A DNA stretch of 34,273 nucleotides, taken from positions 1 to 34,273 of the forward strand of contig JAUCBJ010005371.1 in NCBI GenBank assembly GCA_032718475.1, in the 5' to 3' direction. The stretch comes from Nemertoderma westbladi (lineage: Eukaryota > Animalia > Xenacoelomorpha). The notes under the pieces are model-generated. The model did no database searches. It was given only the letters and a program-made list of their open reading frames with translations, and was not told the origin of the DNA. This document shows positions 2,636-25,300 of the stretch, in pieces. A program made the translations under genes and the position numbers. Each line of letters starts with the position of its first letter. The stretch's first letter is position 1.

Positions 2636-2717
2636 GCCTTTACTCGGATTCGAACCCGCTCCGCCAAACATTATTGTGAAAGCAGTTCAGGCGCTGTAAC
2701 CTCTCGGACACTGCGGC
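2636..2717 (-). mobile_element. tRNA-derived SINE head or tRNA pseudogene (Ser/Leu-type length)
   Basis: Minus strand GCCGCAG-TGTCCGAGAGGTT (A box) ... GGGTTCGAATCC (B box, 2646-2657), 82 nt. The acceptor and T stems pair poorly, so this is not a functional tRNA. Confidence 0.7.
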
Positions 2718-3156
2718 ATTTTGCATTGCATGTTGACTAATAAATCATAATGGATAGTGGGGTTTATATAAATCCGTCTAGACATAGACGGATAAATGAA
2801 GCCAATAGATTTAAGGAATTAAATAATAAAATACAAATTTAATATTTAATTTGAACGATCATGACCTAACTACCTAATATTTATATACAGTAGATACGAC
2901 ACGCCAAGCTGGGGTGATTCTAAATTAGGAAAACACTAGTAAAACTGTAAAACACTAGGAAAAGGAAAACATAGGAAAAGTACTGTAAAACACCCGACAA
3001 ACAGCGAAAATATTGATCAGAAGAAAATTTAACACAAGTACTTCTCTGAATTGACAATCCTAAATGTACTCCTCGCATAGCACACCTTAAGTAATCACCG
3101 TAAAACATAGGGAAAACAATATAAACCTTCCGGAAAACAGTGAAAAAATTGATCAG

Positions 3157-3479
3157 TGTATGGAGGTCACGACTAACTGTGGAGCCGGAATAATGTCGGG
3201 CGTATAATATACAGGTAGTGGACCACACAAGTACAAACAACAACAATGCTGTGCTGGGCCGTCTGTCTGGCAGTGCGCCCTATGGCTGGAGACCTAACTA
3301 CTACAGCAGTACTGTACTACTGGACTAGCTAAATGCTGTCTATCGGTCGGTGGTATCCTGAGTCTGTGTCAGGGCGTAGTCTCTGAATCCTGGTGAGTCA
3401 TCCCTACAGTACTGCAGTCCCTGAGTATCTGCTGGCATATGGGGCGAGCCATGTAGTGTGGCGAGTTTGTATCACTACA
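3157..3479 (-). repeat. 3' LTR of the Gypsy element (323 bp)
   Basis: TGTATGGAGG...ATCACTACA. Direct repeat of 8043-8373; by eye it differs by 2 substitutions and one 8-bp indel. Confidence 0.97.
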
Positions 3480-3490
3480 CCCCCCTTCTA
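3480..3490 (-). other. Polypurine tract
   Basis: Minus strand AGAAG followed by a G run, directly abutting the 3' LTR. Confidence 0.9.
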
Positions 3491-3514
3491 GTTCGTTGCG
3501 GGGTCAACGAACTC

Positions 3515-6500
3515 TCAGAATCTGTTGGGGGGACGCCTCACGCGGGAGGGGTAGGCTCTACGAGGCCGATCGGGTTGTTGAGTGGGGGGAGTGTCAGCCC
3601 AGTGTATGCGCTTCGGTGGCGTTGCAGGTGATCTTGGGCCGTTGTCCCTCGGTATCCCGATGGCTGTTGGTGTGAGTGGGGTGCACTCTCGTGTGCCGGT
3701 AGCGGCGGTGTCCCGGATGAGGTGGCGGCGGTTCCGGGTGAGGCATCGACCGGAAGGAGTACGTACGGTGTACTTCCGGTTGGGTCTTGTTTCCGTGACA
3801 ATCCCAGTGCGGTCCCATCGCTTCGAGACTGGGTTTTGAATTCGGACCGGGTCCCCTACAGCGAATGGAATAAGGGGTTTGGCTCCGCGATTGTAGGCAG
3901 CCATCTGGGTGCCGTGGAGCGAGGGCAGTGCCTCGTCGAGCTCCGCGCGGGTCAGTTGGTGTTCCCGGAGGAAAGCGCGGCTGTGCATTGGCACTCGCGA
4001 CCGTATGGGGTGCCCAAAGAGAATCTGGGCCGGCGACATTCCATGGGCGCGGGGGGAATTTCTGAGTTCTAGGAGTCCTTCCTGGAAAGCATCTGAGTTC
4101 ATTTTCCCCCCGGTCTTGGTGAGCAACGCCTTGAGTGCCTTCACGGCAGACTCCGCGTGGCCATTGCTCTGGGGATATTCGGGAGACAATACGACGGGAT
4201 CGACCCCCCAGACCTGGAGGAAGTCGGTAAAATTCTTTCCAGCGAATTGTGGACCACCGTCGGAAGCGAAACGTAAGGGGGCGCCAAAACGCGTAAATAC
4301 GTCCCTCGCATGCGTAGCGGTAGAAGCAGAGGTTGGGGGATTCCTGTATTTGTAGACTTCGGGCCAACCGGAGTAACGATCCGCGATGGCGAGGAAATTG
4401 TGACCGTCGAGTGCGAAGAGATCTCCGGAGATTTCCTCGAATGGTCTTGTGGCCTCGCGCTCCCGTAGCATGGGTTCCTTCGCGAGGCTGGGGCGTCGAG
4501 TGAGGCAGGGCTCACAGGACTCGACGGTGGTCCGAACGTCGTTTGTCAGTCCGGGCCAGTACACTGTCTGGCGGGCGCGACGTAGCGTCTTCTCGACTCC
4601 TTGGTGTGCGGCGTGGAGGCGCGCTAGAGTGTCCCGGCGGGAGGCCCGCGGGACTACAATCCGTTGTCCGTAGAGGACGAGGTCGCGGTTGGATGAAAGT
4701 TCATCACGTAACGACCAAAAGGGTTGGACACCAGGGAGTTGGCGGGACGGCGGCGGGAATCCGGTGCGAACGGCGCCGAGGAGGTCGACGTAATCGGAGT
4801 CGGCCCGAGCCGTTGCAGCCAAAGATTGGAGGAGTAGATCGGGGTGGTCGTCATCCGGATCGAGTTCGTCCCCCACAATTGTTGCAGCCACCTGTGACGT
4901 TACAGTACATAGGTAGTGGCCCATGTCTCCGTCGTCAACAAGATCATCGTCGGATGGGTCGTCGACAGGGGAGCGGGACAGAGCATCGGGAATGCGGTGA
5001 TCCTTTCCTCTCCTCCAGATGGTAGTAAATACAAAGGAGGAGAGTTTCGACTTGAGTCGCTGGATCCATGAGTTGTCGTTGGCATCCAGCGTCTGGCGGT
5101 CGAGGATGGACACCAGGGGCTGGTGGTCTACCACCAGCGTGAAATGTGGGAGTCCCACGAGGTAGAGACGGCACTTGTGGGCGGCCCACGCAACAGTGAG
5201 GAGCTCCAGCTCCACCATCGCATAGCGCGACTCGGTTTCCGAAATAAACTGTGAACCGCATTCTACCAACCTCCAGTCGGTCCCGTGCAGCTGAAGTAGC
5301 GCGTATCCCAACCCGTTCTTCCTTGAGGCGTCAGTCTCGAGCTTAGTGTCGAGCTCCGGATCGAAGGAAGCGAGGATGGGTGGGGAGACGAGTGTGCGTT
5401 TGGTCGCCTCGAATGCCGCCTCGTGGTCAGAGTTCCATTCGTATGGATTCCTGGAACGGAGGAGGGGGCGCAGGGGGGACATCGTAGCCGAGATGTCTGT
5501 CGAAAATGGGGTGAGTTGCTCGACCAACCCAACAAAGCTCCTCAAGTCTGTAATGTTGGTTGGTCGAGGGAAATCCATTACGGCGCGGACCTTGGATGGG
5601 TCTGCCTGGATGCCGTCGGCCCCGGCAATGTAGCCTGCAAACTTAACTTTGGGTTGGGCGAGTTGTATTTTGTCAGGGTTGAGTGAGATGCCGGCTGTAC
5701 TACGGCATCGTGTGAGGAACCGTCGGACACTGGCGATGTGGTCGTCCAGGTTGTCGTCGTATAGAAGGACGTCGTCGATGACTTTCACCATACCGGGAAG
5801 TCCACGCAATGCGTCGTCGCCCCGGCGATTGAATTCGTCCCCACTCGATATGAGTCCCATTACGCCCCTCCTATACTTATACCGTCCCCAGGGGGTTACA
5901 AAAGTGGTGAGGAGTTGGGATGCTGGGTCGAGGGGGACCTGCCAATAGCCGGCGGCGGCGTCAAATACCGAGAATATCTTAGCGGTCGTGGATATCCCGG
6001 TAACCGCCACCCGCGGGCTCGGGGTGGGGTAATACGGCCGCTTAACCTGGTCGTTCAGGTGGCGGAGGTCGACGCAAACCCGGAGTTTCCCATTGGGTTT
6101 GCGAGCGACAGTGAGCGGGTGGGCCCAGTCAGTAGGTTCGGTGACCCGCTCGATGACTTCCCGTCGTTCCATCTCGTCCAGGTGGGCGCGCACCTCGTCC
6201 CGTAGCGCAAATGGTATGGGCCTCGCGCCGTTTGCGTGGAACGGGGTGGCGCCTTCCTTCAACTCAACGTGCATCGGCTCGCCGGCCATCGTACCGAGCG
6301 GTCGATCCGTGTCGTCGAATACATCGGCGAATTCGTTGAGGAGGTTCGCGCGTAAATGTGCCGTAGGATCGGTTACAGATGCTACAGAGGCGATGGGATG
6401 AGGGAAGTTGGGGTGGAGGAGTTTGAGATCGACGAGTGACTGGAAGGAGAGGATGAGTCCGTCGACTTCCGGGGAGACGCCAATGTTCACGATCGCCGAG

Positions 6501-6883
6501 TTTCCTGCGAAGAAAACTCGGGCAGCAAAAACTCCCATTATCTCCAGTGGAAGGTCGTTGGCGGCGCGTAGATCCGCAGTGGGGTGAGGAGTAAGGTCCT
6601 GGTTGCAGCCGCCCATCCGGTAGAAAATCTCCTGGCTTAGCACGGTGGCTGCAGCGCCGCTATCCGCGAGGACATTGCGTATGATTCCGCATACGTCATC
6701 ATCGTCCACGCCGCGCACCTCGACCTCGATGCGGGGGAGGTCGCAGGCGAATGTTATTGAGTTTATCGGTCCGCCGCCCGTGATCGTGTTCACTCTCGAG
6801 GCTGGTTTACCCGTTCCTTTGCCGCCCCTGGAACTGGGTTTATGTACCGAGTCGGAACGACAGATTGCTTGGAGGTGGCCCAC
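3515..6883 (-). CDS. pol: Gypsy Pol: aspartic protease, reverse transcriptase, RNase H, integrase
   Basis: [12 protein letters not shown]; [25 protein letters not shown]; RNase H ETDAS...YAMVELE...VDHQPL; [32 protein letters not shown]; C-terminal RNRRHL. It is translated as a Gag fusion rather than from the GTG. Confidence 0.96.
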
Positions 6884-7926
6884 TTTCCACAGTTATGGCA
6901 TTTCGTGTCTTTGGCGGGGCAGTTACTCTTTCCCGGAGGGTGACTGCACCCACAGTTTCGGCATACTCCGGAGGCATTAGATGCGTGTTGGGGCGGAGGT
7001 GGGGTTTGCCGGGAGGTCGAACGCCCACGTTTGTACGACGACGTGAGTTTCGTAACCGGGGTCCCACGCCCGATTATTGAGTCATTACGCTCGCTCGCCT
7101 CCATCGATTGGCAGATGCGTACGCAATCCTCGAGGGAAGGTTGTGGAAGAACCTTGAGGAGTTCGGTGCGGGTCTCCGACGAACGGATGCTGACCAGGAT
7201 CTGCGTCACGATCTGTCGATTCCGACAGTGTTCGCAAAGTTCCACGGCGTCGCCGAGTTCCTCCAGGGCGATCCGGAACGAGTCGAAGTTTTCGTTCGGG
7301 CCCTGTCTCCGGTCGTGGAACTTTATTCCATCGATGGCGATACTGCGCTTTGACCGGAGGTGCGCCTGGAGGGCGTCGAGAACCGTCTCCACGGTGGTTG
7401 CGTCGTCGTCGATGTTGACGTTGAGCGTCACGGTGAGAGTTTGTTGTAGGTCTCGACCAATTGCGGATATTAGCGAATAAACCTGTTCGTCGCGTGGGAA
7501 TGTGGATGCTTGTTGGCGGTGTGCGTGGACTCGCCAGGCCTCTCGCCACCGACGGAACGAGGTGAAGTCGACATCGCTATCGATTTTCTCGAGATCGCGG
7601 ATATCGATAACGCGGCGTTGTGGTTGACGTGTCGGTGCGGGTTGTATCGGACTGGCCCCGCCGGGATTGGTCACACCCGCGCCCGATTGGAGTGCGCCCA
7701 TCAGTTGCGCGATCTGTGCATTGGCCTCGGCGCGCTCGCGTGCTGCACTGTCCTGCTGGTGTATCAGCATTTGAGTTAGTTTATCGAGGCGAGCGTCTGC
7801 GGCCGCCTCGCGTTGAGTGGCGTCAATGTCGCGTTTTGCCAACTCTTGACGCAAGTGGTTGAGAACGTCGATGGCGGGTTCAGTGTCGTCCGAGCCCTGT
7901 TCGGAGGGAGTTCTGTGGTCGGCCAT
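6790..7926 (-). CDS. gag: Gypsy Gag (coiled-coil N-terminus, capsid region, CCHC zinc knuckles)
   Basis: ATG ~100 nt after the [18 protein letters not shown] capsid motif, CRNCGCSH..C knuckle, and a second knuckle CHNCGK split by a frame change into the pol frame. Confidence 0.93.
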
Positions 7927-8030
7927 CAGTTCGCTTCTGCGTTACTCGGGGTTTGGGGTTATGCAGACAGGAGTACCGGTAGGTCCGTAGGTTTAGGATT
8001 GCGTGGTGGTTTCAGTTCACCAACACAAAC

Positions 8031-8042
8031 ACAACTGCGCCA
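8031..8042 (-). other. Primer binding site, probably tRNA-Ser
   Basis: Minus strand TGGCGCAGTTGT immediately after the 5' LTR, complementary to a tRNA 3' end ...ACTGCGCCA. Confidence 0.8.
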
Positions 8043-8373
8043 TGTATGGAGGTCACGACTAACTGTGGAGCCGGAATAATGTCGGGCGTATAATATACAG
8101 GTAGTGGACCACACAAGTACAAACAACAACAATGCTGTGCTGGGCCGCCTGTCTGGCAGTGCGCCCTATGGCTGGAGACCTAACTACTACAGCAGTACTG
8201 TACTACTGGACTAGCTAACTGCTGTCTATCGGTCGGTGGTATCCTGAGTCTGTGTCAGGGCGTAGTCTCTGAATCCTGGTGAGTCATCCCTACAGTCAGA
8301 CAGTACTGCAGTCCCTGAGTATCTGCTGGCATATGGGGCGAGCCATGTAGTGTGGCGAGTTTGTATCACTACA
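8043..8373 (-). repeat. 5' LTR of the Gypsy element (331 bp)
   Basis: Near-identical direct repeat of 3157-3479, with an extra CAGACAGT. Confidence 0.97.
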
Positions 8374-8911
8374 ATCAGCATTAAATTTTACCAATATGCA
8401 GCAAAAAAATAAATTTAAGGTGTCTAATACTGCCCAAAAATCTTGTTGCCAGGCAACCAAAGTACCATAACCAATCAGCATACAGTAAGCAGTATCAGTA
8501 ATATCCTTGTTTAACGGTCAGTCTGGTAGAGGCACAGAGTGCCGGTATTGCTATATTCTGGTAGGCCTATTACCTGATTACAGTATTAGTGCTGTAGTTT
8601 ATTCCAGTATTGCAGTATTGTTAGGGTTAGTTAAAGCAAACTGTAAATATTCCTATATTTCCTGTAGTACTAGTACCGGTAGGCCTATTACAGTATTAAG
8701 ACAGCACGGTTAAAGACTGCAGAGATACCGGTAGCTGATATAACCTAACTGCCTAAGCTAAGATTTTATTATAGGAAGACCGAAAATAACTTATCTTTTA
8801 TTGGCGCAATTGTAGGACTAATCCCATCACATGCGTACTTTTTAACCGGGTAGTGTACAAATTTAGGAATCGCATAATTTTTCTTGAAATTAATATCTCA
8901 TATCTCTCCCA

Positions 8912-8954
8912 ACCACGTACGCGTTTCGACCTTACTGGGTCTCATCAGCGTGGT
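8912..8954 (-). ncRNA. Minimal type I hammerhead ribozyme
   Basis: Minus strand ACCACG-CTGATGA-GACC(CAGTAA)GGTC-GAAA-CGCG-TA|CGTGGT. The catalytic core is complete, with 6-bp stem I, 4-bp stem II, a very short palindromic stem III (ACGCGT) and a GUA cleavage triplet. Predicted cut between 8918 and 8917. Confidence 0.88.
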
Positions 8955-9017
8955 GTCGGATTCGAACCTGGGACCTCGAGGTGGAAGCCGAGACTACAAC
9001 CACTAGGCCACAGGTTC
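8955..9017 (-). promoter_or_regulatory. tRNA-derived internal Pol III promoter fused directly upstream of the hammerhead
   Basis: A box TGGCCTAGTGG (9000-9010), anticodon-like loop CTTCCAC (Gly-TCC-like), and B box GGTTCGAATCC (8958-8968) at tRNA spacing. Confidence 0.82.
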
Positions 9018-9079
9018 TTGAGATATGGAGTATTAATTTCAAAGCCAGCTGCCATTTTATTAGCACCTGATTTTTGATT

Positions 9080-9217
9080 ATTGATAGTAACAATGTGTTG
9101 GCAAGCTGTATTTTTCTTATCATTCGAGGTAAAGACCCCTAGATCCCTTCCTATAATAAATGTATAATAAGAAACACCTCGAAAAATACAGCTTGCCAAC
9201 ACATTGTTACTATCAAT
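9080..9217. repeat. Perfect 37-bp inverted repeat with 64-bp spacer
   Basis: ATTGATAGTAACAATGTGTTGGCAAGCTGTATTTTTC (9080-9116) is the exact reverse complement of 9181-9217. Confidence 0.95.
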
Positions 9218-9561
9218 CGCCTATTCTAAGCATAACGAAACAGCAGTACCGGTACTGTGCGCCTCTACCAACAGACTGGTAAAACAAGGATAGTACTGAT
9301 ACTGCACTGTAGGCGTATGCTGAATAGTTACAGTTCTTTGGTCGCATGGCAACAAGCTTTCTGGGCTGAAATTTCTAGGCTTTCCGAGCTTTCTGGGTTT
9401 TTTTTTATTTTTTGCAGCATGTAGGTCTAGCATACAGGTCTAGGCCTACCTCCGCAGAAGTTTGACCGGTACTGCTGTACTGCAGTAGGCAATACAGCAA
9501 TACAGAAATATCAGAATTCAGAATATCCCTGTATCCAGCCTAAGTTGAGTCAGTTTTGGCT

Positions 9562-10233
9562 ATGGCCCTCAATGGCTCTGGTTCTGGAGCTGTATCTATG
9601 GGTACGTCACCGAAATCTAACAGTACTGTGAAATCAAAGAGGCAATCGCGAGAGAATCGCCAGTCGGTTGTGGATGAGTCGTTGGATACTGTTGAGGGGG
9701 TTTTGTCTCTCTCCCAGGCGCAGCGTAACAACTTAACTAAACCTCAATTGAAGTCGGCGTTGAACCTCGTGTTGAACTCTACCAGTACTGGCGGGTTAAG
9801 CGTGAGCGGAACCGAGGATGAGTCAGAAGTGGCTATCGACACGTCAGTTGGAAAACAAATTCTGTTGGAATTACGCGAGATTCGACAGCAGCTGCAAATA
9901 GAAAAGCATCACGTCGCCGAGTTGACGGGAAGGATAGATACAGCATTTAGGATCATAAATAAACAACAGCAGTTTATTGAGGAGATTGACAGTAAGGAAC
10001 GAGGGAGGAATTTAATCATTACGGGTTTAGAAGAAACCATGGATGATTGTGCAGCGGTGGATAACTTAATGATGGCGTTGAAATTGGACGAAATACGAGG
10101 TACCATCCCAAATTGGGACATCAAGAGGTTAGGGAAAAACGATGCAAACGCTGGTGGCACCAGTACTGCCGGTAGAAACAATGCAAGAGGGCCGAATAAA
10201 CGCACCCGCCCATTGTTGGTTTTGTTACGCTAA
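9562..10233 (+). pseudogene. LINE ORF1 (coiled coil plus start of RRM-like domain), C-terminally truncated
   Basis: Heptad-rich segment followed by EEIDSKERGRNLIITGLEE...IKRLGK...RTRPLLVLL, typical of LINE ORF1p. It stops at a deletion junction. Confidence 0.8.
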
Positions 10234-10235
10234 AT

Positions 10236-11660
10236 GACTACGCTAAATTTAAAAAACTAAAATTATTTATTTTGTTTGTGGATTTTTCCAAAGCGTATGA
10301 TAAGGTGCCAAGGATGAAACTTTTAGACAGATTAAGGAAGGCAGGCTGTGGAAGAATTATGTTGTTAGCAATATTTTCAATTTATAAATGTACAAAAAGT
10401 ATTTTAAAGTCAGCTGTAGTTATTACAGCAACTGGTGTACGCCAGGGTGCATCTACGAGTGTTGTGCTTTTTTGTTTTTATATAGACACGTTGGTCAAAA
10501 TGGTAATGTCATCAGTTTCATCTGATGGTTTTTTGGGTTTATTACATATAATGTTATTGATGGATGATACAATTATTTTGTCCACAAACCGCGACTTGTT
10601 ATTATGTAAACTACGTGCTTTAATTTCCTTTTGCAATGATACTGGGATGGTACTTAATTTGAAAAAAACAAAGTTTTTTGTAATAAATGGTACGACAAGT
10701 GACAAAGTACCATTACATGTTGATGATATTATTGTAAAACATTGTGTAGAGTACATATATTTAGGCTCCATTTTTACTGAAGACGGTAAATTTAATACCG
10801 TATTTAATTTACATAAAATTAAATGCGAACAAGTTGTTAATAAATTTTCTATATTTTGTGCTAAAAATACAGCGTTACCATTTGTACTAAAGAAACAAGT
10901 TTTTGAGGCTGGGGTTGCTTCTGTGCTACTATATGGGTGCGAAGGTTGGCTAACAACCAACATTCGAGCTTTAGAGATATTTTATGGTCGGATGGTTAAA
11001 ACTCTCCTAGGAGTTAGAGAGCAGACACCAACCAATCTTTGTCTCATTGAAGCAGGCATGCCAGCTATAGAAACTCGTATTTTACGGTGCCGTAAACGAT
11101 TTTTGTTGAAGGCAGCAGAATCTTTACCTGCAGATTGCCCTTTTCAGTTAGCTTTAAACTTATGTAAAGGTGCTGACACACCTGGTTCTAGAATGATAAA
11201 AGATGCATTATGTTGGCATGAACCTGGTGTATTTAATAGTAATATTGTTAATAATGTTTGTAATAAACCAGAAACTGCAACCAAATTTTTCACTTATAGA
11301 ACAATTTTAAATCCATCGTTATCGTGTCATCCTATTTATAATTTGAAATCTCCTCTGGTGCCTGATTATTTACGCTTATCCTTTTCAAGATGTCGGTTGA
11401 TGTCTCATAACTTGCTGATTGAGAAAGGTAGATGGCAGCGCATACCCCGCGAAAGCAGGGTTTGTAGCTGTGATAATGTGTCTATCCAAGATGAGACACA
11501 TGTATTACTCAATTGCAGGTTAACGGCAACCATCCGAGATTGTTTCCCAAATATTAATTTCGCAACGTTTGGTAATATAAATGAGCTTTTTGATATAAAC
11601 TTAACAGAAATCTACTCAGTATGTAAATACATAGATTTAGTACTAGCATTGTATAAGTAA
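10236..11660 (+). pseudogene. LINE ORF2 fragment: RT core and C-terminal zinc-finger-like motif (RTEX/Proto2-like); endonuclease missing
   Basis: FVDFSKAYDKV, GVRQGASTS, LLMDDTII, YIYLGS, LLYGCEGW, and RLMSHNLLIEKGRW..R..RVCSC...DETHVLLNC. Followed by a 3' UTR with AATAAA (~11799) and a (CTAT)n tail at ~11807-11821. Confidence 0.9.
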
Positions 11661-12204: not shown

Positions 12205-13844
12205 CCAGTAGTTTTCGACCCTAAACTCAGAATTATTGCCAGGACCCAACTTACTCCACTCGCTTTGGGAATACTACTACGACTCCGGCAGTATTCCATC
12301 GCCTTTGCATCTGATATTGAAGGCATGTTTCTACAGGTGAAAGCGTTGCAATGAGACCGATATAGCTTATGGTTCTTATGGTGGCCTGATGGTGATTTCG
12401 ACAAAGAACCGGTAGAGTACTGGATGCCTATCCAGGCCTTCGGTATTATCTCTAATCCATCAAATGCTTGCTCGATAGTGTGTACCACTGCTGACGAAAA
12501 TCGAGACGCCTTCCCCAAAGCAGTCATCGATAACATCAAATGTAACATCTACATGGACGACAACCTCAAATCCCTGCCTACGGTAGAAGAAGCAATCGAG
12601 GTTGCCAAGGGAACGGTAAAGTGTCTTCAACGTGGTGGATTCTGGTTAACTACATTCACCAGCAACTCCCATGAGTTTCTGGAGGCGATCCCAGAAAAAG
12701 AACAAGGTGCTAAAGATCTCGACCTCATTAAAGACGACCTTCTCGAAACTAAAACACTCAGATTGAAGTGGGATACAGAGAGGGATATTTTGTTCTTTCA
12801 ATTAAAACAACACGATAATCATGTTCGAACTAAGAGGATTTGCCTGAGTATTCTGAGCACATCTTTCGATCTGTTAGGATTTATTAGTCCTGTAATCCTG
12901 GTTGCTCGGAGTCTAGTCCAACAAATGTGGCTTGAAAACCACTCTTGGGATGATCCACTTAAGGGAGAACTGATAAAGAAGTGGATGAAGTGGGAAGACT
13001 CTTTACCAGCTATTGAAGACTTTAGGATTTCCATCTCGTATTTCGGTCACGTTCTCCCCACTTATTCCTATCAACTCCATGTCTTTGGAGATGCCAGCGA
13101 TATTGGAATAGGTATAGTAGCCTTTTTGAGGGTCGAAACTTCGGAAGGAATTAAAGTTTCATTGGCCGCCTCAAAGGCTTCGATAAACAACAAACTACAG
13201 GTCCCTAGAGTGCAGTTAAAAGCGGCATTAAACGCTACCGCCATCGGCAGGAACATAATGGAACAGATAGAATATCCGTAGGATAAATCTGTTTATTGGA
13301 CAGATGCATTACACATTCAGGAATATTTGACTAACGAAGTCTGCCAGTTCAGCGACTTTGTCACCAACCGAGTAGCTGTTATACTTAAGTTGGACTAATA
13401 GAGACCAATGGAGACATTGCCCTGGAACCATTAATCTAGCCGACATCGCCTCCAGAAGAGCTACACCTAAAGAACTGATGGATATGCCAGATTGGTTAGG
13501 TGGCCCTGACTTCCTAAGTAAAGAGGTGGAGGAATGCCTCCCCCCCCCCCCCCCCCCATCTTACAACGGTTGAGATCAGACAAGCCAAGGGAGCGGAGAC
13601 TGTTAAAACAAAGACCCGGATGAGTAAATCCAAACTGTTCAAACCAGCGATAGATCTGTCAGTCCTGCATACTGCTGATGACGATAATAAAGATCCTAAG
13701 CGAGTCTCTGGTTAGGCGGTTGTTTATATTCAAGAGCGAGATTGGAAGACTGGTATACCAGATGTCTCTGAAGGACTCTCTCCTATTATTCAGAGAGTGA
13801 TGGTGTATTATAGTTCTTGGAATAGGCTTTGTAAAGCCATAACT
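12205..13844 (+). mobile_element. Decayed BEL/Pao pol fragment (RT and RNase H)
   Basis: GPNLL, SDIEGMFLQV, YMDD, WDDPL, QLHVFGDAS motifs, with stops and frameshifts. Same family as 22351-26850. Confidence 0.9.
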
Positions 13845-14965: not shown

Positions 14966-17008
14966 ATGTAACAGAAAATTCAATGGCTTTCATTGGGATT
15001 AGTTTTACAAAGAAAAATATAAATGCTATCTCAGATGCGCAACTCTCTGATGGCCCCTGGTTCGAAATTTAAATCATGTTTTGTATCGAATTGTCAATTA
15101 CCTCGTAACGAATCCAACTCTATAGTAAATAGGTTAATGGATTAAGACATGCCACCAAAGAATGTGGGACAGGTATGGCTGATTTATTGATCAAATGGGT
15201 TCGAAGCAAATGTTCCGCAAACCTTCTCGAGCGTTAAGTGGACTCACAACTCAAGCCCTCCTTCCCTCTCCGTAGGTGGACAATAAACAGAGTTGGGCGC
15301 CTTTGGCTAGCTATCCCTACAACATGCAGCATCCCAGAGTGCTGCACTAGGGCGTTTTCTTATTCTATCTATAATGAAGGGAGCAGGTCATTGCTAATGC
15401 AAGAACCTTCCACGAATAATAAAGGTGGTCGACCTTCAAAATTACACATATAACCGCAAGAATACAACTTACTATGATTAAAGATTATCGAAATGGTCAA
15501 AAATTAAGTCAATTATGTCACTGTATGACCAACACCACTGAGGCGAGGGGAGCAGAAAGGGGTGGTGTTGGATTAGGTTTATGATGAGTTAAGGATAATT
15601 TTATTATAATTAGGGAAGTGCAAGCAAGATATGGGTTCGATTGATAGAAATATCATTCATTAAAGTTAATAAACAATCTCTTTACAATTGGGTGACAAGA
15701 GATAATGATTGTTGACGTAGAAGTATGATAGTTATCTGCAATTTGTTTTAAATCTTACCGCAAGATCTTTTATTCTATTAGCTAATATCTAAACAAACGC
15801 CTTGAATCAACAATCTTATCACCATCAACAATTGATTGATTCGATCCGACGATCGGAGTTGTTGGTATTTGAATAATAAATGTATGTTGTAGAAACACAA
15901 GAACGAGGAAATCACGAACATTTATTGAGAAACTGTAACTGCGAACATAACCAGCAGTTACTATAAGTTATAGCTCAATGTAGAGTAACCCGACCCTTTT
16001 AGCTAATGCTGAATCACACAACCATTGTTTGACCACAATCTATTTATGCGGTCTGTGTTGAAATTATAAACATGAACAAACTAACGAATGAATTACAGTA
16101 TATATAGTTATGGGTACAGTATAATATATAAATGAAATAAGAATATTATAATGAGACTACTATCTACAGATATAAAATTCTAAAAATCTACAAAGTAACA
16201 TTTAAAATTTACTACGTCAGTTTTTCGTAATTTATTTTAAACAAGCAAATATATTTATTCGAAATTTAAAAAAATATTTGATGAAAAATGTAATAATGGA
16301 ATTTGAGATTTGTAATTTGACCAAACAGTAAAATCATTCCATGGCTTATAAGTCCGAGCAAGAAGCAAATATCGTACAACAACATACTTGCAAGACTGCA
16401 TATTAAATTGAAATCAAGTTCCGAATAAAATTATTTTAACAAAAATAATACAATTGATATTTAATGGCATAGGCCTATCTGCAATAAGGGTAAGGCATAT
16501 TAATTAATAATAGAGTTAATATTATCTTTAATGATATATGTATGTAAGCTCACACTACAGCAGCACTCCAAATTATAGTGTGAGTCTTTATAAACAAGAT
16601 AATACGTAAATAGTACGTACACAGCACCAATCTTCAAAATTTTCTTGTACCTGTACAAAATACATACACATGTTAGTTATCCTGTGTAATAATAATATTT
16701 ATCGGATATCACACAAAAAGCAATTAATGTTTAACCTCTAGAATAAATTGTTTTGTTTATTGGATTGCAAAGCTACGCAATATGAAAAAGTCGCCCGCAA
16801 ATTACAGCGAAAAAAAAAATATAAAGAAAAAATACACATTACACATTACAATGAAAAACTAACATATAAATGTTCTAAAACCAGAGTAGGACCTATAATA
16901 TTTAATCAAAGTCTATACATCTTTGTATACCTTTGCCGTTTAGATATATTAAACTAAATATTATATTTTAAGGACATATAATAAATAATTAGAATTAATA
17001 TATGTATA

Positions 17009-17949
17009 CACCATGACCCGTAATATAGTGTCATTTTCTGATAACGCGCACCCACCCCCCCCCCCCCCCCCCACCCCTCCTCAACTTTTTCGACAAATCT
17101 TTATCATATTGCTTGAAATTTGAAACACAACTAGTTCCACTCACCGTCGATGACCCCGTGAAGCCGGAATTTTCGATTTTGCGTTGAAATTTTTTTTATA
17201 AGTGTTTTGAAAAAGTATCTATTGCGAAATCGCACATTCGTAGACATTCTTCACATTAGTCATAGTGATCATAATGATGTCATAATGAAATAATTTTCAT
17301 ATCATTAAAAAGCGTGCGTTGCAATGATTCCAAATATGTAAAAATATCTGAATTTGGTTGAGAAACAACTGAGATATAGGCTTTCAATGATTGCAATAAG
17401 TATCGTTCGCTGCAGGCCATTTATTCTATTTAATAAATAAACCCAAATTCTAGAATGTGTTATATATTTTATAAGTTGGTTGGCAACAGCGGTATTCCTA
17501 TCCAATATATTTATTACGTAGCTATTCATACTTAAACAAAATGTTCCAGAACATCGTGTATTTATTAAATAGAATAAATGGCCTTCAGCAAACGATACTT
17601 CTTGCAATCTTTGAAAGCCTACATATATCTCAGTTGTTTCTCAACGAAATTCAGATATTGTTACATTATTTCGAATCCTTGCAAGGCAAGCTTTTTAATG
17701 ATATTAAAAAATTACGACTAATGTGAAGAATGACCACGATACGGAGGGTGCGATTTCGCAAAAGACACTTTTTTAAAACGCTTATAAAAACAATTTAAAG
17801 GCTAAATCGAAAATTCCGGCTTCATGGGGTCATCGACGTGAGTAGAACTAGTTCTGTTTCAAATTTTAAGCAATATAATAAAGATTTGTAGAAAAGGTTG
17901 AGGGGGGTCCGTATCATCAGAAAATGGCACTATATTACGGGACTTGGTG
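17009..17949. mobile_element. 941-bp foldback MITE with TA target site (Tc1/mariner-like ends)
   Basis: TA|CACCATGACCCGTAATATAGTG ... CACTATATTACGGGACTTGGTG|TA. Arms ~17009-17439 and ~17558-17949 are imperfect reverse complements. Confidence 0.9.
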
Positions 17950-18566
17950 TATATTGGACAGTACTTTGGCACTACGGCACCATACACTAGATATAAATGT
18001 TACTAAAAATACTATAATATTGTACTAATGGTTTGTTGTACCATAGTATAACAACACTGCAAGTAAGTCTACTTAGCATGTTCTAGAACTACAATAAATA
18101 TTATACTACTTGAAAGCATATGTGAAGCGATTTAAAAAAAAGTCTGTAGGGTACAAAGTGCTATGAATATATATGTATATGTATATACTGTACTGATTCG
18201 AAGTACCTACAATACTTTGGCCGAGCTACGAGGTGGAGGGAGGGGACTCTATACGCAATCACTCTAGAACACTCTCTAGTAGATTCTTGTATATTGTTTT
18301 GGTTAGATAACATTCCACTGTAACCCGCTCGTTTCCTCAATTGATAATTGAAATTGGTAATTAAAAACGATGCTAGACAGAATTTCGTTGAGATTGAAAT
18401 TCGATTGACTTGCATTAATAGCCCACCTCACCCCGTATCTTAAAATTTATGTTATAAATATATAATAACTACATATGATAGACAACGTCTTAAATTATTA
18501 CTGAAGTAAATTCATCGACCAATTCATTCTTCAGCTGCACTACTAGCGCGCATTGTTACGCATCAT

Positions 18567-19289
18567 CTAATCAAAGTCGTTGGTAATAGTCGTGCAGTAC
18601 GGTACTGTGCAAACGAATTCCTCATCATCCTGGAGCGGTTTACGAAGTTTATCATAACGGCATGGGAACTTAGAGCGGGTGCAACGATGCCGTTTCATAC
18701 ACTTTCCGAACTGACGGAGACACGTAAAATCATCGAACGCGCACTTCTGGCAGGGGTACTGCTTGGGGCGCAGGTAGCACGCCAAGCAGCTCGTGTGCTC
18801 ACACATGTCGAGCTTACCATCTTCCGTGTCGCAGGGTTTACCTCCATCACGGACACCTTGCGGGGCCGAACACACCGCTTTCGGGTTGGCGCGACACAGC
18901 TCTGGGCTACACTTTGGGCGGCACCAATTTTTGGTGCTCGGTTGATCCGCCAGCTGCATGGCCGTGCGAGGTTTAATTCGGGGCAAACAGAGGCCTTTGG
19001 CCCCAGCAGGAAGCGATGTTCCCTTTTTGATGGTGACGCCGCACATGAGACCTTTGTCGCACTTTCCAAGATATCCGTCCCTTCCACCGCATCTCTCACC
19101 TTCGACTTTAGCGCATACCGGACAGCATCCACATACCGCGGTACTTGTGCCCCCCGGGCAGTTCTTTAAATCAGATAACTTTTTATCACAGTATATTTTC
19201 TCGCAAGGGGGACAAATAATTGATTTTACCGCGGGCAGGTTGCCAATAATGACAGCGCAGAACAAGCTGGCATATAGAGTTATATACAT
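18567..19289 (-). CDS. Secreted cysteine-rich protein: signal peptide, IGFBP N-terminal (IB) domain, unassigned 16-Cys C-terminal domain
   Basis: Single 240-aa ORF that is GC-richer than its flanks. Hydrophobic N-terminus, 12-Cys IB pattern with CGCCPVCAKVEGERCGG...GKCDKGLMC, and 16 further Cys after a linker. Confidence 0.9.
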   Translation of the reverse strand: MYITLYASLFCAVIIGNLPAVKSIICPPCEKIYCDKKLSDLKNCPGGTSTAVCGCCPVCAKVEGERCGGRDGYLGKCDKGLMCGVTIKKGTSLPAGAKGLCLPRIKPRTAMQLADQPSTKNWCRPKCSPELCRANPKAVCSAPQGVRDGGKPCDTEDGKLDMCEHTSCLACYLRPKQYPCQKCAFDDFTCLRQFGKCMKRHRCTRSKFPCRYDKLRKPLQDDEEFVCTVPYCTTITNDFD

Positions 19290-19438
19290 AGTTAATTAAT
19301 AACAATAATTACATCATGTTATAATTGTTATCTTGAAACAAGAAACAAAATACCAAATAGTACCTCAGTGTAAGTAAATAAAAAATTTGTTAATGCAATT
19401 CCTGCAAAGGTACTTCACAGAAATATGTTGGCAGAATG

Positions 19439-22350: not shown

Positions 22351-25300
22351 AGTCTTTGGTTTAACAGACTCCGCTCCCTTGGCTTGTCTGATCTTCGCGG
22401 TGGTGAGATGGGGGGGCCATTCCTCCACTTCTTTACTCAGGAAGTCGGACCTAACCAATCTGGCGTATCAGTTAGTTATTTGCGTGTAGCTCCCCTGGAG
22501 GCGATGTCGGCTGGATTAATAGTCCCAGGCCAATGTCTCCATTGGTCCACCTTTGTGTGACTGAGTATAATATCTACGCAGTTAGTGACAAAGACGCTGA
22601 ACTGGCAGACTTCGTTAGTCAAATATTCTAGAACGAGTAATGCTTCCGTCCAATAAACAGTTTTCTCCAACGGGTATTCTATCTGTTCAGTGATATTCCA
22701 ACCAATGGCGGTAGCGTATAGTGCTGCTTTTAACTCCGCTCTAGGGACCCGCAACTTGTTGTTTATTAGAGCCTTTGAGGCGGCTAAGGAAACCTTAATT
22801 CTGTCTGGCATTTCGACTCTCAAATAGGCTACTATACCTATTCCAATGTCGCTGGCGTCTCCAAACACGTGGAGTTGATAGGAATAGGTGGGGAGAACAT
22901 GACCGAAATATGAGCGAAAAATCTTAAAGTCTTCAATAGATGGTAAAGAGTTCTCCCACTTCATCCATTTCTTCAATAGTTCACCCTTTAGTGGGTCATC
23001 CCAAGAATGGTTTTCGAGCCACATCTGCTGGACTAGACTCCGAGCAACCAGGATTACTGGACTAATGAATCCCAATGGAATGAAATCGTGCTTAGAATAC
23101 TCAAGCAGATCCTTTTAGTTTGAACAGGATCATTGCGTTGTTTTAATTCGAAGAACAAAATATCCCTCTCTGTATCCCACTTCAGTCCGAGGGTTTTGGT
23201 TTCCGAGAGGTCGTCTTTAAAGAGGTCGAGATCTTTAGCACCTCGTTCCTTCTCTGGGAACGCCTCCAGAAACTCACGGGAGTTGCTGGTGAATTTAGTT
23301 AACCAGAATCCACCGCATTGAAGACACTCTACCGTTCCCTTGGCAACCTCTATAGCTTCTTCCACCATAGGTAGTGACTTAAGGTTGTCATCCATGTAGA
23401 TGTCACGTTTGATGTTATCGATGACTGCTTTGGGGAAGGTTGATTTTCATCAGCAGTAGTACGCACCACTGAGCAGGCATTGGACAGACTAGAGATAATG
23501 CCGAAGGCCTGGATTGTCATCCAGTACACTACAGGTTCTTTGTCGAAGTCACCATCAGGCCAGAATAAGAACCGTAAGCTATCTCCGTCCTGTTGCAATG
23601 CTTTTACCTGAAGAAACATGCCTTCTATATCGGAAGCAAAGGCGATAGAATACTGCCGGAGTCGCAGTAGTATTCCCAACAGTGATTGAAGTAGGTTGGG
23701 TCCCGTCAATAACTCCGAGTTGAGAGATTGTCCCTTATACAGCGCAGAGCCGTCGAACACCACCCAGTCTTCGTTGGGCTTTCCGGGTTTGGGAACGTAG
23801 TGGTGTGTTGTATGTTCTCCGTCACAGGTGTATCGGTTGGAACTCGCTCCGCATATCACTTGTTGATGAACCATTTCAACAGGGTCTTGTGAATCTCTTT
23901 GGCTTTATCATTCCTCGATAAGCGTCGATGTAGCTGTTCGATTCTCTTGATGGCTAACGGTCAATTGTTTATGAAGCTGGGTTCTCTCTTCCGGAAAGGT
24001 AAACCAATCTTGTAACGACCCTCCTCTTGTAGATAATGAATAGTCGTCGCTTGGATCTGTTTAGCTCTCTCCTCCTCTACTGATAGGGCCCTATAATACG
24101 AGTTGGGTTCCACAGCTTCTTGCATAAAGAATCACACTGCAAGTTTATCCCTCAGTTTAGCATTGTATCGCTCCACTACCTTGTTGAGCTCATCATCCTC
24201 ATAAGCCAACAGTTCGTTATTAGGCTGTATTAAGTTACAGAGTTCGATTTGATTGGATCAAGTTTGAATTTCTGTGAGGGGTTCGGGTTTGATAACGTTC
24301 TCCTCGTCATAAAGTGTTTGTGTATCGTCGTTATCTGAGGATCATGGAGTTTCCTCAGCTGTCAGAGTCTCATCCATCACGGCATCTACACTGTTATACA
24401 CTTGAGGGACATGTTCGTCCTATCCTCTTTCTCTGAGGGTACGTCCAGAGGGTCCCATGAGGTACCAACCCACTTTGGTTCTTCCCGCGTAAATTTGTAA
24501 GGGTCGCGGTTGCGCAATGCGCATGTCGTTTTTCTATAGTCTCGAGCGCTTCGTGCGCATTTTAGCTGATGAGCATCTGAACTTCCGGAAAATTGGGTTT
24601 GAATCTGGCAACTCGGTGTCTCTGGGCGAAGGAGTCTTCATCCCAGTCATAAGGAAGGTTCTACTTGACTAGCGGCAAAGTTCTTAATAGCTACCATCTT
24701 AATGGACCTTATGCTGTTCCTACCAGATTCATCATGTGGAGTTGATAGTGATCCCATATAATAGTCCGTAGCTACGGTTGATTTCCATACCTGCATGATT
24801 CCTGAGAGATTTAATTTGGTTCGTAATTTCTCCTGTCCTGCAAATATGTCCTTGGCCAAGTCCTTGTCTATAAAGGTGCCTGTACAACCTGAATCAAGGA
24901 GGGCGTTAATGATTAAACTCTTACATTGTCCATGTATACTGAGCTGCACCACTGGGAATTCTCGTATGCCACTCGATGGTTATGAGACCTTCCATGCGAA
25001 CTGTTTATCTGGAGGGGATAGTTGGACTTCCTCTTCGTTGGTTGTCGCTTCATGGCTAAGGGCACGGTACACTGTCGTCTTGATTAGATAACAGGATTCG
25101 TTTTCATCGGAAAACTCATCGGGGCTGTAGACTCTGGTCAGTATCAATCACATCTTAAAATTGGACATGTAACTCAGGCTCACTCACCTTGCCAAACTCG
25201 CTATGTAATAACGAGTGATGTTTAGCTCTGCACTTAGTGCACCTAGTGGCTGAGTAGCAATATCTCCTCAGACAGTTGTAACATAACCTCTTATCCCAAG

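What the first reader, a model, noticed from the sequence alone, without database searches (positions are those of the whole stretch)
8912..9017. tRNA/Pol III promoter fused directly to a minimal hammerhead ribozyme: candidate SINE-like retrozyme family
Seen: on the minus strand, consensus A and B boxes are followed 3 nt after the B box by a complete type I hammerhead (ACCACG-CUGAUGA-GACC/GGUC-GAAA-CGCG-UA|CGUGGU). Ribozyme stem I replaces the 3' acceptor strand of the tRNA. Established: minimal type I hammerheads with tiny palindromic stem III are typical of Penelope-like elements and animal non-LTR retrozymes and are thought to cleave best as dimers; the Schistosoma Sm-alpha repeat has a comparable tRNA-plus-hammerhead layout. 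Inference: a non-coding, self-processing Pol III mobile RNA (~100 nt 5' product) mobilised in trans, probably by a Penelope-type RT. This family may be undescribed in this host.
Basis: partly seen in the sequence, partly recalled or inferred. Interest (0 to 1): 0.85.

Follow-up and report, generated by a model that had tools for sequence, protein, structure and literature searches.

The report
tRNA-headed hammerhead retrozyme, Penelope-style ends
The tRNA-like promoter boxes and hammerhead motif are real and sit in the middle of a young, many-copy 411-base non-coding repeat of an animal, which likely makes its own RNA, is predicted to cut it into unit-length pieces and is likely pasted back by a Penelope-type jumping-gene enzyme, a design already known from blood flukes.

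Summary
Observation confirmed. On the minus strand lie an A box (9010-9000), a B box (8968-8958), 3 nt, and a complete type I hammerhead (8954-8912; Rfam RF00163 26 bits, below the 34-bit cut-off; 1 descriptor hit against 0 of 200 shuffles). The 106 nt are the middle of a larger element. Sequencing contigs give a 411-nt head-to-tail unit in roughly hundreds to thousands of near-identical copies. This copy (about 8763-9217) is one rearranged monomer with an inverted 101-nt end piece. Copy ends cluster at two points about 55 nt apart around an AC-rich stretch, like the Penelope 'tail'. Best reading: an Sm-alpha-like non-LTR retrozyme. It is likely transcribed by Pol III, predicted to cleave as a dimer and likely mobilised by a Penelope RT. 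The mobile RNA is likely the unit, not the 100-nt 5' piece. Against this: a T4 run lies before the unit end, no partner enzyme was found, expression and cleavage are untested, and covariation could not be tested. The host was not identified beyond 'animal'. The scan noted 411/412-nt units of the same description four times elsewhere in this genome, and similar designs in other genomes (unchecked notes). Verdict: new member of a known kind.

The parts
8779..9116 (-). Body of the repeat unit, 338 of 411 nt, 41% G+C, non-coding
   Evidence: Summed contig depth 1.5e5-8e5 in X1 over 8770-9149 against about 30 in the flank 8710-8749; X4 contig 17 matches 8779-9116 with 4 differences; the two 91-95 aa frames over it have no Pfam hit
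9011..9017 (-). tRNA positions 1-7; presumed Pol III start near 9017 (inferred)
   Evidence: Position relative to the A box; pairs with 8970-8964
9000..9010 (-). A box
   Evidence: Sequence; box consensus recalled
8958..8968 (-). B box
   Evidence: Sequence; box consensus recalled
8912..8954 (-). Type I hammerhead, predicted cut 8918/8917 after GUA; stem III is the palindrome CGCG, predicted to form between two copies
   Evidence: stem II probability 0.7-1.0, stem I 0.24-0.57, stem III self-duplex -9.5 kcal/mol
9020..9042 (-). 5' arm of a 23-bp inverted repeat that encloses the tRNA-hammerhead cassette
   Evidence: 87% complementary to 8906-8884; paired in the fold of the body
8884..8906 (-). 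3' arm of the same inverted repeat
8783..8786 (-). Only run of four T on the ribozyme strand in the 403 unit bases held in the window; possible weak Pol III terminator
   Evidence: kept in the family (loose-end consensus)
8763..8778 (-). Tail-less end of this copy; follows a 39-nt gap relative to the family unit
   Evidence: 8778-8765 equals 9147-9160, 14 of 14; family contigs instead join 8779 to 9116 on the opposite strand through 8 nt
9117..9217 (+). Inverted 101-nt piece of the same unit, spanning its head-to-tail junction
   Evidence: Joint 8779-9116 'opposite strands' in 5 of 5 runs that hold the element; X6 contig 6 spans 9144-9217; 9181-9217 is a perfect inverted copy of 9080-9116
9162..9217 (+). 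AC-rich (64% A+C) stretch between the two clusters of copy ends; likely the Penelope-type 'tail'
   Evidence: Long unrelated loose ends at 9074-9077 (X1 17, X2 21, X5 4, X6 3 contigs); ends at 9165 and 9169; a tail-only piece 9160-9215 in X6
9123..9130 (+). 8-bp inverted repeat with 9176-9183, closing a stem over the unit junction; the inversion junctions seen lie at or near it
   Evidence: Fold; window junction 9116/9117; X6 contigs 4 and 5, X5 contig 25
8751..8762 (+). Left half of an imperfect 12-bp direct repeat (10 of 12) with 9219-9230; possible target duplication, unverified
9219..9230 (+). Right half of that imperfect direct repeat

Best explanation
This is one rearranged copy of a young, many-copy, non-coding 411-nt repeat whose unit carries tRNA-type A and B boxes directly ahead of a type I hammerhead motif; it is likely a Pol III-transcribed non-LTR retrozyme of the Sm-alpha kind, predicted to cut itself as a dimer and likely pasted in by a Penelope-like retrotransposon's enzyme. 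Shown: the motifs, the repeat family, the 411-nt closed unit, the clustered ends and the inversion. Inferred: (1) Pol III starts near 9017 in a tandem copy and partly reads through the single T4 run into the next unit. (2) Two hammerheads pair through their CGCG palindromes and cut after GUA. This frees a 100-nt leader and a unit-length RNA that has the promoter at its 3' end. (3) A host ligase may close that RNA into a 411-nt circle. (4) A Penelope-type RT/endonuclease nicks AT-rich DNA and starts copying at either edge of the AC-rich tail. This gives tandem, 5'-truncated and inverted copies. This copy has one hammerhead, a 39-nt gap and no tail downstream of its promoter, so it is likely a dead end.
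For: Motifs and chance control. Family: 2584 contigs laid in X1, 932 in X2, 69 in X5, 1 in X4, 9 in X6; in X1, 2141 of 2584 are at least 95% alike. Closed unit: X4 contig 17 (441 nt) carries the same end sequence at record 13-30 and 424-441, a period of 411, equal to 338+8+65 from the window's own pieces. Size, G+C below 50%, no ORF and hammerhead type fit non-LTR retrozymes (PMC7229834, parts 2-4 read). A Pol III promoter followed by a hammerhead, working from tandems, is described for Schistosoma (PMC6765202 passages). PLE hallmarks are partial tandems, an inverted 5'-truncated copy and an optional tail at one end (PMC8557442 passages); the tail lies between two RT start sites in an AC-rich stem loop and targets are AT-rich (PMC11167929 parts 1-2). 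The window copy and X6 contigs 4 and 5 each show an inverted tail piece joined to a tail-less end. Depth rises toward the tail in X5 and X6. Xenopus retrozymes are PLE-derived (bioRxiv 10.64898/2026.07.22.740005 parts 1-3).
Against: No cleavage, expression or circle was observed. A closed contig also arises from a terminal direct repeat over 30 nt or from tandem DNA, and X4 is only guessed to be RNA. I saw no tandem array myself. The T4 run at 8786-8783 could stop Pol III at 235 nt (a terminator of four or more T is recalled). T-run scarcity is not significant (P 0.67). No partner PLE was seen: no GIY-YIG family among 62 frames of the window, and no host genome is held. The tail here is about 55 nt against 30-40 nt in print. 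Stem I is only 24-57% formed in the ensemble. The Rfam score is below the curated cut-off. The family is too young to show selection: 0 of 43 hammerhead positions against 5 of 295 other body positions carry a segregating substitution of 2% or more in X1, which is no real difference. In print only 1 of 9 Xenopus retrozyme dimers cleaved in vitro, and the PAc hammerhead was not needed for insertion in vitro.
Confidence: 0.55

Rival explanations
1. The 411-nt unit is the terminal repeat (pLTR) of a protein-coding Penelope-like element that has taken a tRNA-derived promoter; the many short copies are its truncated insertions.
For: PLE terminal repeats carry hammerheads (PMC4209133). In X6 two contigs deeper than the hammerhead body (117 and 43.6 against 11.9) share the tail and then run on into other sequence for 350-750 nt, as an ORF would follow the tail in PAc. 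Unchecked scan notes report this layout in other genomes (e1-8796959, e1-10341848, e1-10117909).
Against: The unit closes on itself at 411 nt. The hammerhead is of the canonical, not the PLE min-HHR, shape. No listed loose end points to one dominant long continuation: agreement is 0.4-0.54 at 9077. The tail-sharing contigs were not shown to hold the tRNA-hammerhead cassette.
Confidence: 0.15
2. The element is the same Pol III and hammerhead RNA, but a LINE reverse transcriptase, not a Penelope one, copies it, as for ordinary SINEs.
For: Tail ends fall in an AAT-rich run. An imperfect 12-bp direct repeat flanks this copy. LINE RT fragments are common in the window. One unchecked note describes four 412-nt units joined to a LINE tail between 14-bp repeats (e1-10596620).
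Against: Two end points with an optional tail and repeated inverted 3' pieces are PLE signatures. BLAST of the element against the window found no match to the LINE fragments there. A ribozyme behind a SINE head would cut off the promoter in ordinary monomeric SINE transposition (PMC5786205 passage).
Confidence: 0.12
3. The unit moves or amplifies as DNA, as a non-autonomous rolling-circle (Helentron-like) or tyrosine-recombinase (Crypton-like) element, or as a satellite. Its ends are shared with sister families, and the tRNA-hammerhead cassette is cargo inside a hairpin.
For: Sub-terminal inverted repeats with unequal outer ends. High-depth contigs share only the end segments (X5 contig 25, depth 1106; X6 contigs 2 and 3). 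One X1 contig lacks exactly the cassette (joint 8902-9018, depth 31). A closed unit also fits circular DNA intermediates.
Against: In X1 and X2 the contigs that leave at 9077 are long and unlike each other, as single-copy flanks would be. The three inversion junctions seen differ from one another. An intact hammerhead in a 150-450-nt tandem unit is a known retro design. The features of Helentrons are recalled, not tested; for Crypton I read passages of PMC13565253 only.
Confidence: 0.1
4. One reading: the mobile species is the ~100-nt tRNA-like 5' cleavage product, a minimal SINE.
For: The 100-nt piece folds as a stable rod (-34.3 kcal/mol) and holds the whole promoter.
Against: Depth does not drop at 8917 or 9017 but runs from 8779 past 9149. 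No listed loose end sits at the cut site, though the tables were cut.
Confidence: 0.03

Closest known systems
Schistosoma Sm-alpha / Sj-alpha SINE-like hammerhead retroposons (primary papers not held; seen through passages of PMC6765202, PMC2770079 and PMC8490949)
   Same: tRNA-derived Pol III promoter followed by a type I hammerhead; multi-copy; the cut leaves the promoter at the 3' end of the unit, so tandems are needed; similar size class (335 bp in PMC8490949).
   Different: Unit 411 nt; the hammerhead scores below the RF00163 cut-off; stem I starts 3 nt after the B box, at tRNA position 66; a 23-bp inverted repeat encloses the cassette; the ends show a Penelope-type tail and inversions, which the passages I read do not report for Sm-alpha. 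The promoter-to-ribozyme distance in Sm-alpha could not be read. The host is not shown to be a flatworm or not.
Metazoan non-LTR retrozymes (PMC7229834; PMC7761336; bioRxiv 10.64898/2026.07.22.740005)
   Same: 150-450-bp non-coding units, G+C below 50%, canonical type I hammerhead with a weak palindromic helix III, self-paired fold (body z = -3.5), PLE proposed as mobiliser.
   Different: PMC7761336 says that these elements seem to harbour no promoter and show no motif that names their partner. This family has both candidate features. Circular RNA is not shown here.
EN+ Penelope-like elements, e.g. PAc/Poseidon of Anolis (PMC11167929, PMC8557442, PMC4209133)
   Same: Two end points around an AC-rich tail, AT-rich sites, inverted 5'-truncated piece, partial tandem, hammerhead in the repeat.
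   Different: No ORF; hammerhead of canonical rather than minimal shape; tail about 55 nt rather than 30-40; tRNA-type promoter.
tRNA-derived SINEs (SINE2)
   Same: A and B boxes in a decayed tRNA head.
   Different: The head lies in the middle of the unit, about 100 nt from the body's start, and a ribozyme follows at once; no LINE-derived tail was identified.

Membership tests
Type I hammerhead ribozyme | Core CUGANGA...GAAA...NUH with stems I and II paired | tested here: met
   All core letters present, 10 of 10 Watson-Crick pairs in stems I and II; 0 of 200 shuffles; Rfam 26 bits, under the cut-off of 34
Type I hammerhead ribozyme | Self-cleavage at the predicted site | not testable with these tools
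   Bench assay needed; only contigs were available for this DNA
Type I hammerhead ribozyme | Covariation or selective conservation among copies | tested here: inconclusive
   Family nearly uniform; hammerhead variants at most 0.4% of depth in X1 and X2; one X5 contig (depth 401) has five changes in the motif, four of them in the core or breaking stem II; organisms C and D gave nothing
Non-LTR retrozyme | Non-coding unit of 150-450 bp, G+C below 50%, with a type I hammerhead | tested here: met
   411 nt, 41% G+C in the body, no Pfam hit
Non-LTR retrozyme | Tandem copies in the genome | tested here: inconclusive
   Head-to-tail junction and a closed 411-nt contig seen; a terminal direct repeat would look the same; the window holds a monomer; arrays appear only in unchecked scan notes
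Non-LTR retrozyme | Expressed as unit-length linear and circular RNA | not testable with these tools
   No raw RNA reads were offered
Non-LTR retrozyme | No LTR, primer-binding site or polypurine tract | tested here: met
   By eye: the tail starts TG and ends near CA, but no tRNA primer site follows it and no purine tract precedes it on either strand
Sm-alpha / Sj-alpha family | Pol III A and B boxes upstream of the hammerhead | tested here: met
   (sequence only; promoter activity untested)
Sm-alpha / Sj-alpha family | Sequence homology to Sm-alpha and a schistosome host | not testable with these tools
   No Sm-alpha sequence was available from a tool; host unidentified. Filed as the same design, not as a family member
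Penelope-like element (autonomous) | ORF with PLE RT and GIY-YIG endonuclease | tested here: not met
   None in the element; no GIY-YIG family among 62 frames of 75 aa or more outside the LTR element
PLE-mobilised non-autonomous element | Optional tail, inverted 5'-truncated piece, partial tandem | tested here: met
   few junctions seen, tables cut
PLE-mobilised non-autonomous element | 3' end shared with an autonomous PLE of the same genome | not testable with these tools
   No genome held
Helentron-like or Crypton-like non-autonomous DNA element | Fixed ends on both sides, partner transposase, insertion-site rule | tested here: inconclusive
   Sub-terminal inverted repeats present, but ends vary (9160-9169, 9074-9077, 9215-9217); no partner could be sought

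The most novel reading that the evidence does not exclude
This is an independently born 'SINE of Penelope' outside the blood flukes: a tRNA captured so that its 3' acceptor strand was replaced by hammerhead stem I. The result is a self-promoting RNA circle that parasitises a Penelope enzyme through a shared 55-nt tail. With the scan's other notes, such tRNA-headed Penelope parasites would be a recurrent, unrecognised class across animals. That would answer how some retrozymes are transcribed and which enzyme moves them.
Probability: 0.4. Interest if true: 0.65.

Novelty: new member of a known kind. Interest (0 to 1): 0.42.

Why it matters
Animal retrozymes are described as having no promoter and no motif that names their mobiliser (PMC7761336). 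The only Pol III case in the papers I could read is Schistosoma Sm-alpha and its relatives (PMC6765202). A young, abundant family with intact A/B boxes, an intact hammerhead and Penelope-type ends offers one small element in which both questions can be tested: Pol III read-through into a circle, and trans-mobilisation by a PLE protein for which an in vitro assay exists (PMC11167929). The design itself is not new, which caps the score.

Tried and rejected
Whole-genome copy search: no genome is held. Runs: no RNA holder listed; X4 is only guessed to be RNA, and its single contig at depth 13.8 may be DNA. Of 13 runs listed, 8 were laid: 5 held the element (X1, X2, X4, X5, X6) and 3 gave nothing (X9, X10, X12; no proof of absence). 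Public collections: a general B-box-plus-hammerhead pattern gave 4 viral, 10 metagenome and 3 genome loci; none is this element. A tail pattern gave 0 genome loci and 2 viral loci that are 19-20-nt chance matches. A first local pattern missed the site because its gap was too short. T-run depletion as support for Pol III read-through: not significant (P 0.67; the A-run excess is matched by 5 of 110 background windows). Host phylum from the IGFBP-domain gene: named hits at 34-41% in a sea cucumber, an annelid, a bryozoan and a fish, unnamed hits at most 47% over near-full length, Atlas not diagnostic; the names of the closest hits could not be looked up, so the host stays 'animal'. TRIM or Helenus/Ajax-type LTR element: rejected, no primer site or purine tract; PMC10886601 mentions hammerheads only in a reference title. 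OMEGA/Fanzor guide RNA: considered, no nuclease ORF and no support in PMC13565253 passages. Functional tRNA gene: rejected. Literature on tRNA-headed hammerhead repeats outside schistosomes: 8 searches showed none in the listings or the passages read. Ferbeyre 1998 is not held, Laha 2000 was not read, the supplement of PMC7229834 could not be read, bioRxiv supplements are closed, and Repbase was not available; any of these may already hold such families.

Full report
Observation. On the minus strand an A box (9010-9000) and a B box (8968-8958) are followed after 3 nt by a type I hammerhead (8954-8912) with all core letters, a 6-bp stem I, a 4-bp stem II and the palindrome CGCG in place of stem III. 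Rfam's Hammerhead_1 model matches at 26 bits, below its gathering score of 34 (E 0.025 on the window; 1.2e-4 on 171 nt). A strict descriptor finds one site in the window and none in 200 shuffles. The 5' strand of stem I occupies tRNA positions 66-71. The tRNA part is not a tRNA gene and refolds as a rod. By PMC4209133 (parts 1-2 of 4 read) this is the canonical metazoan type I shape, expected to need a dimer, not the PLE min-HHR.

Setting. The window is animal DNA rich in transposon debris: an LTR element at 3136-8373, LINE RT frames, Pao fragments and an IGFBP-domain gene. No genome is held. The host could not be placed further.

The element is larger than the finding. Laying contigs of public runs on the region (8 of 13 listed runs laid, 5 held it) shows summed depth of 1.5e5-8e5 from about 8779 to beyond 9149 in X1, against about 30 for the single-copy flank. 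Summed depth is no copy number. Dividing by 1 to 31 overlapping words gives a rough range of several hundred to about ten thousand copies (my arithmetic on X1 and X2). In X1, 2141 of 2584 contigs are at least 95% alike, so the family is young. The window copy differs from nearly all contigs at 8874, 8910 and 9065. With the family's letter at 8910, five more pairs can extend stem I past one bulge (read by eye).

All 5 runs join 8779 to 9116 on the opposite strand, so 9117-9217 is an inverted piece of the same unit. X4 contig 17 (441 nt) repeats its end sequence with a period of 411, which equals 338+8+65 from the window's pieces. X6 contig 6 spans 9144-9217. The unit therefore closes head to tail. 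This may be a tandem, a circle or a terminal direct repeat; the contigs cannot tell these apart, and X4 is only guessed to be RNA. A 23-bp inverted repeat (9042-9020 / 8906-8884) encloses the tRNA-hammerhead cassette, and the body folds more stably than shuffles (z -3.5).

Ends. Long, mutually unlike loose ends gather at 9074-9077 (X1 17, X2 21, X5 4, X6 3 contigs). This is 3-6 nt further along the unit than the window's own end at 9217. A second group of ends lies at 9160-9169 (two X6 contigs, and the window's end at 8763). One X6 contig holds only 9160-9215. The stretch between the two groups is about 55 nt and 64% A+C. The window copy and two X6 contigs each have an inverted tail piece joined to a tail-less end, with junctions at or near an 8-bp inverted repeat (9123-9130 / 9176-9183). 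The loose-end tables were cut (366 rows not shown, 3), so these counts are partial. PLE insertions are described with partial tandems, an inverted 5'-truncated copy and an optional 30-40-bp tail (PMC8557442 passages). In PAc the tail lies between two RT start sites in an AC-rich stem loop (PMC11167929 parts 1-2 of 4; lead from scan note e1-10341848). An imperfect 12-bp direct repeat flanks the copy.

Mechanism. Most likely (0.55) Pol III starts near 9017 in tandem copies and reads partly through the single T4 run. Paired hammerheads would then cut after GUA, the unit-length RNA may be circularised, and a Penelope-type enzyme would copy it from either edge of the tail. Every step is inferred. 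The same logic is in print for Sm-alpha, where the promoter ends up at the 3' end of the cut unit and single copies cannot spread (PMC6765202 passages), and for retrozyme circles (PMC7229834 parts 2-4 of 6). The link of retrozymes to PLEs is argued in bioRxiv 10.64898/2026.07.22.740005 (parts 1-3 of 5). This copy has one hammerhead, a 39-nt gap and no downstream tail, so it is likely inactive as a donor.

Results against. The T4 run may end transcription at 235 nt, and T-runs are not significantly scarce. Stem I is 24-57% formed in the ensemble. Conservation of the core cannot be told from youth (0 of 43 against 5 of 295 positions varying at 2% or more in X1), and one X5 contig carries a broken hammerhead at depth 401. 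No partner PLE was seen (0 GIY-YIG among 62 frames). Some deep contigs share only the end segments, which also fits a coding PLE's terminal repeat (0.15) or a DNA element with shared ends (0.10). A LINE partner (0.12) is possible, and one unchecked note points that way. In print 8 of 9 Xenopus retrozyme dimers did not cleave.

Comparison and novelty. It works like Sm-alpha and meets the sequence criteria of non-LTR retrozymes. Membership of the Sm-alpha family by homology could not be tested. PMC7761336 (passages) states that retrozymes seem to lack promoters. Eight literature searches showed no tRNA-headed hammerhead repeat outside schistosomes, but primary Sm-alpha papers, supplements and Repbase were not seen. 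Other papers seen as passages: PMC2770079, PMC8490949, PMC5786205, PMC6309819, PMC10886601, PMC13565253 (passages and outline). The scan's sequence look-up found nothing. Its word and genome look-ups list four 411/412-nt or five-unit notes of this description in the same genome, and related designs in others; these are unchecked and are not counted as evidence. Verdict: a real, young retrozyme-type family, new member of a known kind, interest 0.42.

Noticed in passing
window 2640-2717 (minus): A second tRNA-like head with a B box at 2656-2647, longer box spacing and no hammerhead behind it; probably an ordinary SINE.
   Followed up: partly
window 8432-8552 and 9242-9366: Inverted arms (79% over 128 nt) on either side of the element: it sits inside an older fold-back repeat.
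   Followed up: no
window 3136-8373: LTR retrotransposon with 93-100% alike LTR segments, a 383-aa gag-like frame and a 1125-aa pol frame with RT, RNase H and integrase domains.
   Followed up: no
window 18567-19295 (minus): Uninterrupted 242-aa frame with an IGFBP domain and a cysteine-rich C-terminal part without a Pfam name; near-full-length relatives at 34-47% in scattered animal phyla.
   Followed up: partly
window 9544-11660; 12265-13615 and 22352-23679; 1454-1696; 17005-17953: LINE-type RT fragment; two inverted Pao/BEL fragments; a 15-bp tandem array; a fold-back element.
   Followed up: no
L004:601-650; L005-L008 and L012-L014 at their match positions: In 8 of 17 loci from the general pattern scans (one viral contig and seven near-identical metagenome loci) a T-arm-like hairpin is followed directly by a complete type I hammerhead; ARAGORN calls no tRNA there. 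It may be a prokaryotic or phage parallel of tRNA-plus-ribozyme layouts.
   Followed up: partly
window 8902-9018 (joint in run X1): One contig at single-copy depth lacks exactly the tRNA-hammerhead cassette between the arms of the 23-bp inverted repeat: a deletion derivative or a cassette-free ancestor.
   Followed up: no
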